15,158 nt of DNA. Origin: a virus. The notes under the pieces were generated by a model. The model did no database searches and was not told the DNA's origin. It saw only the letters and a program-made list of their open reading frames with translations. The position numbers were made by a program, and so were the translations under genes. Where the stretch lies: UHGV virus genome UHGV-1773351, one strand, 5' to 3'. How positions within the stretch are numbered: position 1 is the first letter of the stretch; every line of letters begins with the position of its first letter. Positions 9,234 through 12,535 of this stretch are shown one piece after another.

Positions 9234-9812
9234 ATGTTGCGCTTTACTGAGGAAGAGTTTCAGGCTTTTAGTGAGCGTCGAAATAAGGGGCGGTCCAGGC
9301 CAAAAACCAAAAAGGATCCATTCTTATCGCTTGCGCCGGTAAAAGAAGTTTCTCCACATGCGAAGGCACTTGCAGCACTGGCAAAGAACCCAGACCTGCG
9401 CGACGGAAATTGCGAGCACTTCGAGCAGGTTTTCATTTTTGATTACTTCGAACGCAAGCACCCTGACATCTATGAGCTGTTGCATGCAACGCCTAACGGA
9501 GGGAAACGTTCAAAAGCAACCGCCGGGAAAATGAAGGCTGAAGGGCAGAAAAAAGGTTATCCGGACATGAGTCTCGATAAAGCATGCGGTATTTATCACG
9601 GCATGCGAATTGAGCTTAAAGAACCAAATGGTAAAGCCCCGACGAAAGAGCAGATCGCCTGGATGCGCAGGCTTAGAGAGGAAGGTTACTACGTCGTTCT
9701 TGCGTATGGTGCAGAACAAGCGATAACCGCCATCCTGGAATACATGAGCCTTAAAAAGGGTGAGGCTATTGAGCATGTATTGAACGGTGACAAGTGTTTG
9801 TACGCTACGTGA
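9234..9812 (+). CDS. VRR-NUC domain nuclease (PD-(D/E)xK superfamily)
   Basis: C-terminal region GYPDMSLDKACGIYHGMRIELKEPNGKAPTKEQIAWMRRLREEGYYVVLAYG matches the VRR-NUC pattern (Asp, then E-x-K, then a helix and beta strand). Start lies 2 nt after the previous stop. Confidence 0.7.
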   Translation: MLRFTEEEFQAFSERRNKGRSRPKTKKDPFLSLAPVKEVSPHAKALAALAKNPDLRDGNCEHFEQVFIFDYFERKHPDIYELLHATPNGGKRSKATAGKMKAEGQKKGYPDMSLDKACGIYHGMRIELKEPNGKAPTKEQIAWMRRLREEGYYVVLAYGAEQAITAILEYMSLKKGEAIEHVLNGDKCLYAT

Positions 9813-9879
9813 AATAATAAATTAATTAGTGCATATGTGTATCTTTGATACAGCGCACATTAACATCGGGAGAATAATC

Positions 9880-10035
9880 GTGTCATCCAAGGCTAATTAT
9901 GAATCGCTGGCATCGATCATGCCGCGTAATGAACAGGAAGCAGATGCTGTAGTGGACCCGGTAATCGCTGAAATGAATGCTCGCCTGGAGGCTGAATTTG
10001 CAGCTGAGAATGAACATACCACCCAGGGCGACTAG
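9880..10035 (+). CDS. small hypothetical protein (about 51 aa from GTG 9880)
   Basis: GGGAGA 7 nt upstream of GTG 9880. The ORF-track start at 9829 is a GTG with no Shine-Dalgarno in an AT-rich spacer. Confidence 0.35.
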   Translation: MSSKANYESLASIMPRNEQEADAVVDPVIAEMNARLEAEFAAENEHTTQGD

Positions 10036-10639
10036 GACTGTTTTTTGTGTCGGTAGCGGTCCGTCACTCACTCGTGAGGACTGTGCTGCTATAGAAAAAA
10101 CTGGCTGTTCAATCATCGCGGTTAACAATTCCTGGCAGATGTTCGATGACATTTATGCCTTATACGCCGGTGATTTGTCATGGTGGAAGCAATACGGATC
10201 CACCATACCGGGAGGGAGATTCCGCAAAGTGACAGCCAACCTGGCGGCGGCGAAATCATTTTCGTTGGAGTACAGGCGATATTGTGGACCGGCTGAAGGG
10301 GTTAATAGCGGCGCGCAGGCTATCAGTCTGGCGGCTGAATCAGGGGCTGAAGTAGTTGTATTAGTCGGCTATGACTGTTCTCTGCAAAACGGCCTTCATT
10401 GGCATGGAGCACACCCTCAAGCACTACGGAATCCAACGCAGGTGTCTATTTCAAAATGGCAACAGCAGTTCCTGGATACCCGCAAAAAACACGCAGATTT
10501 ACATATTTTGAATGCAAGTAGGAGCAGTGCAATTCAATGTTTCCCAAGAATAAATTTAGAGGCAGTGATCGCGTTATTATCGTCGGCAGTGGCCCAAGCG
10601 CCGCAAACTTTGTTGCGCCGCGCGGAGTGCCGATTATAG
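10010..10639 (+). CDS. GT42/DUF115-like (Cst-II sialyltransferase / Maf / MptE-like) putative CMP-sugar transferase, paralog A
   Basis: N-terminal VFCVGSGPSL, then IIAVNNSWQMFDD and NSGAQAISLAAESGAEVVVLVGYD, collinear with Cst-II motifs as I recall them. Start chosen at ATG 10010 to give the same N-terminal length as paralog B; the ORF-track start is 9977. Confidence 0.5.
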   Translation: MNIPPRATRTVFCVGSGPSLTREDCAAIEKTGCSIIAVNNSWQMFDDIYALYAGDLSWWKQYGSTIPGGRFRKVTANLAAAKSFSLEYRRYCGPAEGVNSGAQAISLAAESGAEVVVLVGYDCSLQNGLHWHGAHPQALRNPTQVSISKWQQQFLDTRKKHADLHILNASRSSAIQCFPRINLEAVIALLSSAVAQAPQTLLRRAECRL

Positions 10640-11163
10640 CGGTCAATGGGGCCATAGACTGGCTTAACCGCGCTTCTTATTTTTTCACCCTTGATCCATC
10701 GCCAGACAATATGCGGCGCGTTGGTCGTGGCCGCCGTCGCCGTGGTGTTTGTTATTGCATGGCGCTACCCGATGTTAAAGAACGTGAGGTCAGAGACGGC
10801 GTTCTGTGCTTCCGTCGTGTGGCTGAGCGCGGCACGGAGCCAAAAAATACGAATTCTCCCGAGTGGTGGGCGTGGCGCTGGTCCGCACATTTCGGCCTTT
10901 GCGAAGATGAGAATGAAATTGCCAGCGGCAATAGTGCATATGGTGCTCTGAACCTGGCTTTCCATATCGGATTCAAACATGTCGCCCTGGTGGGCGTTGA
11001 CGCTACACAAGAACCACGCGTTCACTCCGGCGGCACGCCAAAAAATCTAAGTCACCTGCCTTTGTTATTCCAGTCTGCGCGTGAACAGATTGACGTTGTT
11101 TCATGCGGGAAAATGGGAGGTATTCCGCAGATGACTCTTAAAGAATGGCTGAAGAATACATGA
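10537..11163 (+). CDS. GT42/DUF115-like putative CMP-sugar transferase, paralog B
   Basis: [21 protein letters not shown] and [24 protein letters not shown] parallel paralog A. AGGAG lies about 12 nt upstream of the ATG. Overlaps paralog A by 103 nt in another frame. Confidence 0.55.
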
Positions 11164-11837
11164 TGGCACCAACAATTTATCACCGTATCGACGGTACCAA
11201 ATACAGGAATATCTGGGTTGTTGGTGATCTGCATGGTTGCTACAACAGACTGATGTCCGAACTCCATCGTGTGGATTTTGACCCGGCGCAGGATTTACTG
11301 ATATCGGTCGGCGACCTTATCGATCGCGGTACTGAAAATGTCGAATGTCTGGAACTATTGCAGATGCCCTGGTTCAGGGCAGTGATGGGGAACCATGAGC
11401 GGCTGATGATTGATGCGTTAAGTCCAGATGGCAACGTGAATAACTGGCTAATGAATGGCGGACAATGGTTCTTCATGCTGGACACTGATCAGGAAATATT
11501 AGCTAGGGCGCTGGTGGAGCTGGTAAAGCGTCTGCCCTATATCATTGAGTTGAACACCGGGCAAGAAACTATCGTTATAGCCCATGCCGACTATCCGGAT
11601 AATGAATACCAATTCGGTAAGGAGGTGCCGCTTTTCAACGTTGTCTGGGCGCGCGAGCGTATCAGTGATTCGATGGATGATATTGGTGGCGAAATTTCGG
11701 GCGCAGATCGTTTTATCTTTGGTCACACTCCGGTGAAAAGCCCGAAGACATTCTGGAATCAGCATTATATCGATACTGGTGCCGTATTTTGCGGAAACCT
11801 GACATTGATGAAAGTGAAAGGTGATGGTGCAGCATGA
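11145..11837 (+). CDS. Ser/Thr protein phosphatase, lambda PPase (PPP) family
   Basis: Canonical PPP motifs GDLHGCY, GDLIDRG and GNHE, plus near-collinear similarity to lambda phosphatase ([12 protein letters not shown] ... [13 protein letters not shown]). ATG 11160 overlaps the upstream stop in an ATGA arrangement and is an equally plausible start. Confidence 0.85.
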
Positions 11838-12535
11838 AGATTGCTTTAGTTCTTCGCTCTGGTGGTGACTATAACGCTTCCGATGTGCAGTGGCTGGTTA
11901 ATCAACTGCCAAAAGGCTATGAAATTATTTGCCTGACAGACCTGAAGCGTTTACATGTACCTGGCGTCAAAGTTGTCCCATTGATCAACCAGTGGCAAAA
12001 GTGCCGTGGCTGGTGGGCGAAAATCGAGTTGTTCCGACCGGATATAACCGATGATCTGTTCTATCTGGATTTGGACACGGTTATTGCCGGTGATATACGC
12101 CCAATCCTTGAGAATCCACCAACCAGCTTCACCATGCTTAGGGATTTTTACCATCCACAATATCGTGGTAGCGGTGCCCTGTGGATACCAAATAGTGTAA
12201 AAGCGCATATCTGGAGTTCATTCTGGCAAGATCCGGAAGGTTGGATTGCTCGTTGTGTTACTACTGAATGCTGGGGTGATCAGGGGTTTTTGCGGAAGGT
12301 TATGGGTGATGATACACCAGCATTTCAGGATCTGTATCCGGGATGGTTTGTAAGTTACAAGGCCGATGTTGTGGAACCTGGTTCGAAATATGCGAGCGCG
12401 CGTTACTCCAGGGGGAATGGGGCATTACCAAAAGACTGCCGAATAATCTTTTTCCACGGCAAACCGCGACCTCGCGAAGTGTCAGAGGATTGGCTTCCCC
12501 TTATTAGCTCGTTTTTTGAGCGAGAATCAGAATAA
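11834..12535 (+). CDS. hypothetical protein, possible GT-A fold nucleotide-sugar transferase (DxD-like motif)
   Basis: ATG overlaps the phosphatase stop (ATGA). The motif [19 protein letters not shown] resembles the DxD region of GT-A transferases; this is a motif-level guess only. Confidence 0.55.

What the first reader, a model, noticed from the sequence alone, without database searches (positions are those of the whole stretch)
10537..10639. Tandem paralogs overlapping by 103 nt in different frames
Paralog B starts at ATG 10537 while paralog A runs in another frame to 10639. Both have the GSGPS motif at the same distance from their start, so both starts look genuine. A 103-nt overlap is unusually long, and A's last ~24 residues go beyond the region homologous to B's C-terminus. 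This could be a recent duplication with a drifted stop, programmed frameshifting, or a sequencing frameshift.
Basis: seen in the sequence. Interest (0 to 1): 0.45.

Follow-up and report, generated by a model that had tools for sequence, protein, structure and literature searches.

The report
Known overlap of P1 pmgO/pmgP genes
The 103-base overlap is real, but it is the junction of the phage P1 genes pmgO and pmgP, already in the P1 reference annotation, and most of its length is an unselected tail left when pmgO's stop codon drifted downstream.

Summary
The window is a P1-like phage. ORF A (9977 or, more likely, 10010..10639) is pmgO and ORF B (10537..11163) is pmgP. The same 103-nt overlap is annotated in P1 and P7. 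It is not a sequencing error: 84 other P1-like sequences align over 10010-11163 without a gap. It is not a recent duplication: A and B are remote paralogs (23% identity, hhalign 97.9%), and each also occurs alone elsewhere.

In 12 diverged lineages the A/B overlap is 7, 13, 37, 40, 49, 70, 94, 94, 103, 109 or 157 nt, always with B in the -1 frame. In the enterobacterial lineages B's ATG sits at the same place, on A's conserved Cys codon.

Constraint splits the overlap in two. In 10537-10570 A's conserved C-terminus is constrained and B's leader varies. In 10571-10639 B is constrained and A's 22-residue tail evolves freely. Synonymous recoding of B gives an overlap of 103 nt or more in 21% of trials.

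A slippery-looking heptamer (T_TTC_CCA, 10540-10546) is not conserved, has no significant RNA structure downstream, and B has its own Shine-Dalgarno sequence and ATG. Programmed frameshifting is therefore unlikely. The finding is ordinary and low in interest.

The parts
10010..10639 (+). pmgO (P7 hdmB), ORF A: MptE-like / Maf-like putative glycosyltransferase. The P1 annotation uses ATG 9977; ATG 10010 fits the family better.
   Evidence: identity to P1 79592..80254; phrog_4603, E=3.7e-74. PF01973, below threshold; model pLDDT 94, best fold match Maf glycosyltransferase 5mu5; position of the start.
10537..11163 (+). pmgP (P7 hdmC), ORF B: remote paralog of pmgO, with an 11-residue N-terminal leader before the [10 protein letters not shown] strand.
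   Evidence: phrog_2111, E=3.8e-132; hhalign against the A family, 97.9%; stand-alone homologs keep a leader of about 9-12 residues. There is no other ATG, GTG or TTG in frame before the conserved strand (sequence).
10537..10570 (+). Core overlap. It holds the last conserved residues of PmgO (C177[10 protein letters not shown]187) and PmgP codons 1-11. B's ATG is built from the last base of the Gln codon plus the TG of A's conserved Cys codon.
   Evidence: the ATG is at the same place in 10 enterobacterial-type lineages; 0 of 34 sites polymorphic in 85 P1-like sequences; between P1 and JK004 or Pantoea, B has no synonymous differences here but 6-7 amino-acid changes, while A stays conserved.
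10571..10639 (+). Tail overlap: the lineage-specific 22-residue extension of PmgO ([22 protein letters not shown]) plus its TAG, read across PmgP codons 12-35 ([24 protein letters not shown]).
   Evidence: homologs normally stop earlier; 4 of 5 polymorphisms are silent in B and change A. B's synonymous divergence here (12/22) matches the non-overlapping part (77/141); recoding simulation; pLDDT falls to 82 and then 68.
10520..10524 (+). AGGAG Shine-Dalgarno sequence for pmgP, 12 nt upstream of the ATG, embedded in PmgO's conserved S-R-S codons.
   Evidence: an SD-like GGAG, AGGAG or AAGGA lies 7-12 nt upstream of B's ATG in 11 of 12 lineages.
10540..10546 (+). T_TTC_CCA heptamer in A's frame. 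It fits the formal X_XXY_YYZ pattern, and a -1 slip here would enter B's frame at B's codon 2. I judge it incidental.
   Evidence: present in P1/P7, the Pantoea contig (T_TTC_CCT) and L099 only. Absent in JK004, phiNP, L090, L100, L101 and EP_H11; no significant downstream structure (z=-0.54).
9880..10035 (+). pmgN, the upstream gene of the same operon. It overlaps pmgO by 26 nt (10010 start) or 59 nt (9977 start).
11145..11837 (+). ppp (lambda-type Ser/Thr phosphatase). It overlaps the end of pmgP by 19 nt, or by 4 nt if it starts at ATG 11160. Its stop overlaps the pmgQ start as ATGA.
11834..12535 (+). pmgQ (phrog_1962, 'glycosyltransferase'), a conserved neighbour of pmgP-like genes.
   Evidence: a PmgQ homolog lies next to the PmgP homolog in 14 of 17 diverged loci.

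Best explanation
Two separately translated genes of one operon, pmgO and pmgP, overlap out of frame. They are ancient paralogs with a Maf/MptE-like fold.

The overlap has two parts of different origin. The first 34 nt (10537-10570) is an old, conserved arrangement in enterobacterial phages. pmgP's own SD (AGGAG 10520-10524) and ATG lie inside the codons for pmgO's conserved C-terminal motif N-x-S-R...C-F-x-R-x-x-L-E-x-x-I. There pmgO's frame is constrained and pmgP's short N-terminal leader takes whatever sequence results.

The remaining 69 nt is passive. In this phase a stop in pmgO's frame can arise only where pmgP uses rare ATA or GTA codons followed by A or G, in V-I-I-V-G, V-A or I-I-A. 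P1 has none in V-I-I-V, so pmgO reads on to the next chance, ATT-ATA-GCG giving TAG at 10637. The resulting 22-residue tail is not under selection.

Shown: the anatomy, its conservation, the split of constraint between the frames, and the lack of frameshift signals.

Inferred: pmgP is started de novo at its own SD. Ribosomes translating pmgO would keep the site unfolded, which is translational coupling by unfolding. Termination-reinitiation is unlikely because pmgO's stop is 100 nt downstream and its position varies from 7 to 157 nt between lineages.
For: Identity with P1 pmgO/pmgP and P7 hdmB/hdmC, with the same annotated overlap.

No indels in 84 other P1-like sequences. Polymorphisms fall at third codon positions in both single-coding parts (42/62 and 53/67), so both genes are under purifying selection.

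Overlap series of 7-157 nt, always in the same phase, with B's ATG on A's Cys codon in the enterobacterial lineages.

A-family ends: about 100 homologs stop 7-19 residues after the R180 equivalent.

Core overlap: 0/34 polymorphic sites against 129/1051 in the flanks (Fisher p=0.013). Tail: 4 of 5 polymorphisms are B-synonymous and A-nonsynonymous (share at A's second codon position against the A-only region, p=0.0013). B's synonymous divergence in the tail equals that elsewhere: 55% v 55% against JK004, and 65% v 56% against the Pantoea contig.

Recoding simulation: the overlap distribution is bimodal, about 40-46 nt or 100 nt and more, with P(103 or more)=0.21.

Stand-alone B genes keep a 9-12-residue leader.

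An SD is present 7-12 nt upstream of B's ATG in 11 of 12 lineages.

The literature model fits. Phase-1 unidirectional overlaps cannot be short and arise mostly by 3' elongation of the upstream gene (PMC3887535).
Against: There is no direct expression data. Neither the PmgP start at 10537 nor the PmgO C-terminus has been mapped by proteomics or ribosome profiling, and neither protein was found in the P1 virion proteome (PMC9024508).

The SD-ATG spacer of 12 nt is longer than optimal.

The structure model continues PmgO's last helix through the tail (H183-206) at moderate confidence (pLDDT 82, then 68), so a structural role for the tail is not strictly excluded.

The polymorphism statistics rest on few sites: 5 in the tail and 0 in the core.

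The 12 lineages are related, not independent.
Confidence: 0.85

Rival explanations
1. Programmed -1 ribosomal frameshifting at T_TTC_CCA (10540-10546) makes a PmgO(1-178)-PmgP(2-208) two-domain fusion in addition to the separate proteins.
For: The heptamer fits X_XXY_YYZ in pmgO's frame, and a -1 slip lands exactly in pmgP's frame at its codon 2. The same or an equivalent heptamer occurs in the Pantoea contig L089 and in L099. The two proteins are paralogs that always travel together in phages, so a fusion is biologically conceivable.
Against: The heptamer is absent in JK004 (T_TTT_CCA), phiNP (C_TTT_CAA), L090 and L100 (C_TTC_CCC), L101 (C_TTC_AGA) and EP_H11 (C_TTC_GAG), although the overlap is conserved there. 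Its presence is explained by A's C-F-P over B's M-F-P. There is no significant downstream structure (z=-0.54). B has its own SD and ATG and occurs as a stand-alone gene. A's residues after the site (R180, L183) are conserved and the core has no polymorphism, so full-length A is what selection sees. None of the 120 listed A homologs has the length expected of an A-B fusion; only one is over 230 aa and its C-terminus is not PmgP-like. U_UUC_CCA is not among the efficient E. coli slippery sites (own knowledge).
Confidence: 0.04
2. The long PmgO tail is a selected feature. It could be a helix that contacts PmgP, or a long overlap that tunes the PmgO:PmgP ratio because ribosomes translating pmgO occlude pmgP's start.
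For: Long tails (18-47 residues after the R180 equivalent) recur in several lineages where A overlaps B. The model draws the tail as a continuation of the last helix. Polymorphism density in the tail is somewhat lower than in the flanks (5/69 v 12%), though not significantly (p=0.14).
Against: Tail length and sequence are not conserved; the overlap varies from 37 to 157 nt within enterobacterial lineages, and the only shared residues (L-S-S/L) are dictated by B's I-I-V. 4 of 5 polymorphisms change the tail residue while being silent in B. B's synonymous divergence across the tail is not reduced. The neutral recoding model reproduces the observed bimodal lengths.
Confidence: 0.07
3. Artefact: a sequencing or assembly frameshift, or a decaying pseudogene, produced an apparent overlap.
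For: Frameshifted pmgO variants do exist in some E. coli records (P0002, P0012-14, P0026). pmgO and pmgP are dispensable for plaque formation (PMC10695390; PMC9024508).
Against: 84 other P1-like sequences align over 10010-11163 without gaps. The same phase and ATG position hold in lineages down to 31% (A) and 46% (B) identity. Both genes show third-position-biased polymorphism.
Confidence: 0.01
4. pmgP starts further downstream at a non-canonical codon, so the true overlap is shorter than 103 nt.
For: The SD-ATG spacer of 12 nt is long. In distant relatives (Zhongshania, Brevundimonas) B has almost no leader.
Against: There is no ATG, GTG or TTG in B's frame between 10537 and the conserved strand [10 protein letters not shown]. 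The ATG is at the same position in 10 lineages. Stand-alone homologs have leaders of similar length. Even a start at the strand would leave more than 60 nt of overlap.
Confidence: 0.03

Closest known systems
Phage P1 pmgO/pmgP (AF234172 79592..80254 and 80152..80778) and phage P7 hdmB/hdmC (AF503408)
   Same: The same genes. The window is 97-98.5% identical in DNA, with the same start, stop and 103-nt overlap already in the GenBank annotation.
   Different: Nothing material. The deposited notes call them 'putative morphogenetic'. I found no discussion of the overlap itself in the searchable literature. The P1 genome paper could not be read here.
Long phase-1 unidirectional gene overlaps formed by 3' elongation of the upstream gene (neutral model of Fonseca et al. 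2013, PMC3887535)
   Same: Same strand. [quoted passage not shown] Overlaps in this phase cannot collapse to the 4-nt or 1-nt form, and their length is set by the first available frameshifted stop. The recoding simulation reproduces this.
   Different: At 103 nt it is beyond the 60-nt range that the model treats as selected against. More than 80% of prokaryotic overlaps are under 30 bp (PMC12548453). Here the proximal 34 nt is conserved rather than accidental.
Translationally coupled overlapping gene pairs (ATGA-type, termination-reinitiation)
   Same: Same operon, SD of the downstream gene inside the upstream gene, and neighbouring junctions in this operon of the ATGA type (ppp/pmgQ; probably pmgP/ppp). 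Distant relatives have 7- and 13-nt overlaps.
   Different: In P1 the stop lies 100 nt downstream of the start. Coupling by termination-reinitiation requires an overlap or a very short spacing (Huber et al. 2023, title cited in PMC12548453). Only coupling by unfolding remains plausible. Coupling was not tested.
Programmed -1 frameshift pairs (lambda G/GT, dnaX)
   Same: The downstream frame is -1 relative to the upstream one, and a formal X_XXY_YYZ heptamer is present in the overlap.
   Different: The heptamer is not conserved and there is no stimulatory structure. The downstream ORF has its own start and exists independently.
Overprinted genes (phiX174 E inside D; lambda Rz1 inside Rz)
   Same: The same nucleotides are read in two frames.
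   Different: Neither gene arose inside the other. Both predate the overlap, have homologs outside it, and overlap only at their ends. At each position only one frame is under constraint.
Maf flagellin glycosyltransferase (PDB 5mu5) / Pfam MptE-like PF01973 (DUF115)
   Same: The PmgO model's best PDB match is 5mu5 (E=2.4e-4, prob 1.00, TM 0.60 on the query). It has the G-x-G-P-S N-terminal motif, and many homologs carry precomputed PF01973 hits.
   Different: PmgO and PmgP are single-domain proteins of about 200 aa, against 632 aa for Maf. Their own Pfam scores are below the gathering threshold (23.1 and 20.9 v 34.6). The PHROG label 'alpha-2,3-sialyltransferase' is not backed by sequence similarity to Cst-II (E=0.99). 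Activity and substrate are unknown.

Membership tests
Programmed -1 ribosomal frameshift site | Slippery heptamer X_XXY_YYZ in the upstream frame, conserved among homologs | tested here: not met
   T_TTC_CCA at 10540-10546 is present in P1/P7, L089 and L099. It is absent in JK004, phiNP, L090, L100, L101 and EP_H11.
Programmed -1 ribosomal frameshift site | Stimulatory RNA structure downstream, or an SD-like element at the right distance upstream | tested here: not met
   The fold of 10500-10650 gives z=-0.54, and 53 of 200 shuffles fold as well. The AGGAG lies 15 nt before the heptamer and is explained as B's SD.
Programmed -1 ribosomal frameshift site | The downstream ORF depends on the shift and has no independent initiation | tested here: not met
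   B has an ATG and an SD conserved in position, and occurs as a stand-alone gene in 6 loci.
Unidirectional terminal gene overlap (phase 1) by stop-codon drift | Both genes are independently homologous to non-overlapping genes elsewhere | tested here: met
   A occurs alone in D3-like, PAJU2 and jumbo phages. B occurs alone in Pseudescherichia and Buttiauxella contigs.
Unidirectional terminal gene overlap (phase 1) by stop-codon drift | Stop position of the upstream gene varies between lineages while the start of the downstream gene stays fixed | tested here: met
   Overlaps of 37, 40, 49, 70, 94, 94, 103, 109 and 157 nt share the same ATG position.
Unidirectional terminal gene overlap (phase 1) by stop-codon drift | The extended part of the upstream protein is not under purifying selection | tested here: met
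   4 of 5 polymorphisms are A-nonsynonymous and B-synonymous. B's synonymous divergence is not reduced in codons 12-34.
Translationally coupled gene pair | Translation of the downstream gene depends on translation of the upstream gene | not testable with these tools
   Only the architecture is seen: same operon, with SD and ATG inside the upstream ORF. It needs reporter fusions with a premature stop in pmgO.
Overprinted (de novo) overlapping gene | One frame is evolutionarily novel and confined to the overlap | tested here: not met
   Both proteins have broad homolog families and the same fold.
Pfam PF01973 MptE-like / Maf-type glycosyltransferase domain | Score above Pfam's gathering threshold | tested here: not met
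   A scores 23.1 bits and B 20.9 bits against a cutoff of 34.6. Many A homologs do carry precomputed PF01973 hits.
Pfam PF01973 MptE-like / Maf-type glycosyltransferase domain | Fold similarity to a solved member | tested here: met
   The model has pLDDT 94.2. The top and only hit at E<=0.001 is Maf 5mu5, at E=2.4e-4 and TM 0.60.
Pfam PF01973 MptE-like / Maf-type glycosyltransferase domain | Nucleotide-sugar-dependent transferase activity | not testable with these tools
   No biochemical data were found. Knock-outs and knock-downs show no plaque phenotype.
GT42 sialyltransferase (Cst-I/II), the PHROG label | Significant sequence similarity to Cst-II | tested here: not met
   The profile search of PDB sequences gives 2drj at E=0.99.

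The most novel reading that the evidence does not exclude
In the P1 clade only, the T_TTC_CCA heptamer sitting exactly on pmgP's second and third codons supports a low level of -1 frameshifting. This would yield a PmgO-PmgP tandem-domain fusion alongside the two separate enzymes, making three products from two overlapping paralogous genes.
Probability: 0.04. Interest if true: 0.5.

Novelty: already known. Interest (0 to 1): 0.15.

Why it matters
It matters little for biology at large. It settles that the long overlap in a classic reference phage is genuine. It is not an assembly error or a frameshift signal, and its unusual length needs no special mechanism.

Three practical points follow.
- Gene callers often mis-handle this junction. 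In JK004 and in one P1 record (OP279344) no pmgO gene is annotated, in EP_H11 the pmgP homolog is not called, and in phiNP and two metagenome loci it is called with a late start.
- pmgO's annotated start (9977) is probably 11 codons too far upstream.
- Anyone deleting or recoding pmgO in P1 must keep 10520-10539 to preserve pmgP expression. T10575A would remove the tail cleanly.

A side result may matter more. pmgO, pmgP and pmgQ look like a conserved glycosyltransferase-type module rather than 'morphogenetic' genes.

Tried and rejected
- Slippery-site hypothesis: I noted T_TTC_CCA early, tested its conservation in nine diverged lineages and folded the downstream RNA. Rejected.
- Recent duplication: rejected by the 23% profile-level identity and the separate occurrence of each paralog.
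- Natural in-frame A-B fusions: none of the 120 listed A homologs has the length expected of an A-B fusion. Only one exceeds 230 aa (P0110, 321 aa), and its C-terminus is not PmgP-like. P0019 is a 151-aa fragment from a 454-nt contig and looks like a local sequence error.
- The IMG/VR scan with the B alignment returned only near-identical P1-like loci. These were useful for polymorphism counts but not for divergence.
- The P1 genome paper (PMC523184) is not held.
- The sequence search of the PDB gave nothing significant.
- My first heptamer coordinates (10539-10545, notebook entry 1) were off by one. The correct range is 10540-10546.
- The A-run noted in the notebook as 10481-10487 is in fact 10484-10489.
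- The notebook's 46 nt for the Pantoea locus is 49 nt when computed exactly.

Full report
**What is there.** The window is a P1-like phage (Punavirus). Positions 9800-11300 are 97-98.5% identical to P1, P7, RCS47, SJ46 and other P1-type phages. ORF A (listed as 9977..10639, frame 2) is P1 pmgO, called hdmB in P7. ORF B (10537..11163, frame 1) is P1 pmgP, called hdmC in P7. The GenBank records of P1 (79592..80254 and 80152..80778) and P7 annotate exactly the same 103-nt overlap.

The neighbours are pmgL, pmgM (VRR-NUC), pmgN, ppp (lambda-type phosphatase), pmgQ (a PHROG 'glycosyltransferase') and pmgS.

**Are both genes real and both ends right?**
- Across 85 P1-like sequences (57 haplotypes) the 1154-nt stretch 10010-11163 aligns without a single gap.
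- Polymorphisms fall mainly at third codon positions in the part that codes only for A (42 of 62) and in the part that codes only for B (53 of 67). Both are protein-coding genes under purifying selection, and a sequencing frameshift is excluded.
- B's ATG 10537 is the only canonical start upstream of its first conserved strand, [10 protein letters not shown]. It is preceded by AGGAG at 10520-10524.
- Homologs of B that stand alone in Pseudescherichia, Buttiauxella and other enterobacterial contigs keep an N-terminal leader of about 9-12 residues before the strand. The 11-residue leader in P1 is therefore normal for the family.
- For A, about 110 homologs place the G of the GPS motif at residue 10-14. 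ATG 10010 puts it at 17 and the annotated ATG 9977 at 28.

**Are they paralogs, and is the duplication recent?** BLASTP finds only the N-terminal motif (E=0.003). Profiles of the two families align over almost their full length (hhalign 97.9%, E=5e-13, 23% identity).

The two belong to different PHROGs (4603 and 2111). A occurs without B in D3-like, PAJU2 and several jumbo phages, and B occurs without A in six chromosomal loci. The duplication is ancient.

A structure model of A is confident (pLDDT 94.2). Its only PDB match at E<=0.001 is the Maf flagellin glycosyltransferase 5mu5. This agrees with the weak Pfam MptE-like hits.

**Where does A normally end?** In about 100 homologs A ends 7-19 residues after the conserved Arg (R180 in 10010 numbering). 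P1's A ends 29 residues after it. The conserved domain ends at I187, at nt 10568-10570.

**How is the junction built in relatives?** I collected 12 lineages in which an A homolog is followed by a B homolog.

| Lineage | Overlap (nt) |
|---|---|
| Brevundimonas MAG | 7 |
| Zhongshania | 13 |
| EP_H11 / IME392 | 37 |
| Chimaeribacter | 40 |
| Pantoea alvi | 49 |
| JK004 | 70 |
| phiNP | 94 |
| Metagenome locus L101 | 94 |
| P1 / P7 / window | 103 |
| Metagenome locus L100 | 109 |
| Metagenome locus L099 | 157 |

B is always in the -1 frame relative to A. This is phase 1 in the terminology of PMC3887535. In all ten enterobacterial-type lineages B's ATG is at the same homologous position. It is made of the last base of the codon before A's conserved Cys plus the TG of that Cys codon (xxA-TGy-TTy). 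An SD-like GGAG, AGGAG or AAGGA lies 7-12 nt upstream of B's ATG in 11 of the 12 lineages (none was found in phiNP). In the enterobacterial-type lineages the spacer is 10-12 nt and the element lies in A's conserved S-R codons. So about 37 nt of overlap is an old, conserved feature. What varies is how far A reads on.

**Which frame is constrained where?**
- Core (10537-10570): no site is polymorphic among the 85 P1-like sequences (0/34 against 129/1051 in the flanks, p=0.013). Between P1 and JK004 or Pantoea, B has no synonymous differences here but 6-7 amino-acid changes. A keeps its sequence through A-synonymous changes. Here A is constrained and B's leader is free.
- Tail (10571-10639): 4 of the 5 polymorphisms are silent in B and change A at its second codon position (p=0.0013 against the A-only pattern). 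B's synonymous divergence is the same as in its non-overlapping part (12/22 v 77/141 against JK004; 11/17 v 73/130 against Pantoea). Here B is constrained and A's tail is free.

No stretch shows clear double constraint.

**Why 103 nt?** In this phase a stop in A's frame needs a B codon ending in TA or TG followed by a codon starting with A or G. Given B's sequence, this is possible only at V-I-I-V-G (needing rare GTA or ATA codons), at V-A, and at I-I-A.

I recoded B synonymously with the local codon usage. The resulting overlap distribution is bimodal, at about 40-46 nt or at 100 nt and more, and 103 nt or more occurs in 21% of trials. P1 misses the early chances and stops at ATT-ATA-GCG, which reads TAG in A's frame. 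[quoted passage not shown] It holds even though overlaps of this size are rare overall, since more than 80% are under 30 bp (PMC12548453).

**Frameshifting.** T_TTC_CCA (10540-10546) fits the formal slippery pattern in A's frame, and a -1 slip would join A to B's second codon. The evidence is against a programmed shift.
- The heptamer is present only in P1/P7, Pantoea and L099. It is absent from six other lineages that keep the overlap.
- It follows from A's C-F-P lying over B's M-F-P.
- The RNA downstream has no unusual structure (z=-0.54).
- B initiates on its own.
- A's residues after the site are conserved.
- No A-B fusion is seen among the 120 listed A homologs.

I give it about 4%.

**How it most likely works.** pmgN, pmgO, pmgP, ppp and pmgQ form a tightly packed operon downstream of a C1 operator, and ppp/pmgQ share ATGA. 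PmgP is probably initiated de novo at its own SD while ribosomes translating pmgO pass through and keep the site open. Reinitiation after pmgO's stop is unlikely, because that stop is 100 nt downstream and its position is evolutionarily free. This step is inference, not shown.

Both genes are dispensable for plaque formation (CRISPRi knock-down in PMC10695390; that paper's table records the deletion survey of PMC9024508 as 'NE' for both). The P1 virion proteome paper names neither protein in its main text and reports only PmgC and PmgG as newly found virion proteins (PMC9024508).

**Verdict.** The feature is real, conserved and already annotated. It is not a recent duplication, a frameshift site or an error. 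Its distal two-thirds is a neutral by-product of stop-codon drift. Interest is low (0.15).

Noticed in passing
window 9977-10035: The annotated pmgO start (ATG 9977, 220 aa) is probably 11 codons too long. Homologs place the GPS motif at residue 10-14, which favours ATG 10010 (GPS at 17). The pmgN/pmgO overlap would then be 26 nt rather than 59 nt.
   Followed up: partly
window 10010-12535; loci L003, L004, L005, L089, L091-L100: A PmgQ-like protein (phrog_1962, 'glycosyltransferase') lies next to the PmgP homolog in 14 of 17 diverged loci. This holds where PmgO is absent: it is a convergent neighbour in L091-L095 and lies upstream in L098. With PmgO's Maf-like fold, pmgO-pmgP-pmgQ looks like a glycosyltransferase-type module rather than 'morphogenetic' genes. 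The target is unknown.
   Followed up: partly
window 10484-10489 (A6 run in pmgO): Database proteins from E. coli P1-like elements include frameshifted pmgO variants. One is P0002, which ends ...RKKTRRFTYFECK, as expected from one extra A in this run. P0012-14 and P0026 have other shifts. They are either decaying copies or homopolymer sequencing errors, consistent with the gene being dispensable.
   Followed up: no
window 11145-11163 and 11834-11837: ppp is listed from ATG 11145, a 19-nt overlap with pmgP. ATG 11160 would give a classic ATGA overlap with pmgP's stop and an N-terminus closer to lambda phosphatase. ppp's stop and pmgQ's start share ATGA at 11834-11837.
   Followed up: no
locus L102 (E. 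coli M056 contig ADIK01000011) 506-1934: A PmgO homolog with a 28-residue tail overlaps, by up to 50 nt, an unrelated 293-aa downstream ORF followed by a methyltransferase-like gene. Long C-terminal read-on of PmgO-family genes is therefore not limited to the pmgP junction.
   Followed up: no
loci L003 (JK004), L004 (phiNP), L005 (EP_H11), L100, L101: Gene callers handle this junction inconsistently. JK004 has no pmgO-homolog gene annotated. EP_H11 has no pmgP-homolog gene. phiNP, L100 and L101 have pmgP homologs called with late starts that shrink the overlap.
   Followed up: yes
window 9820-9836: By coordinate transfer from the P1 record, this is the C1 repressor operator Oppp in front of pmgN. 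The pmgN-pmgQ operon would therefore be repressed in the lysogen.
   Followed up: no
window 9880-10035 (pmgN): In the CRISPRi screen pmgN scored as essential although its deletion is viable (PMC10695390). The cause is unexplained there, and pmgO, pmgP, ppp and pmgQ downstream are themselves nonessential.
   Followed up: no
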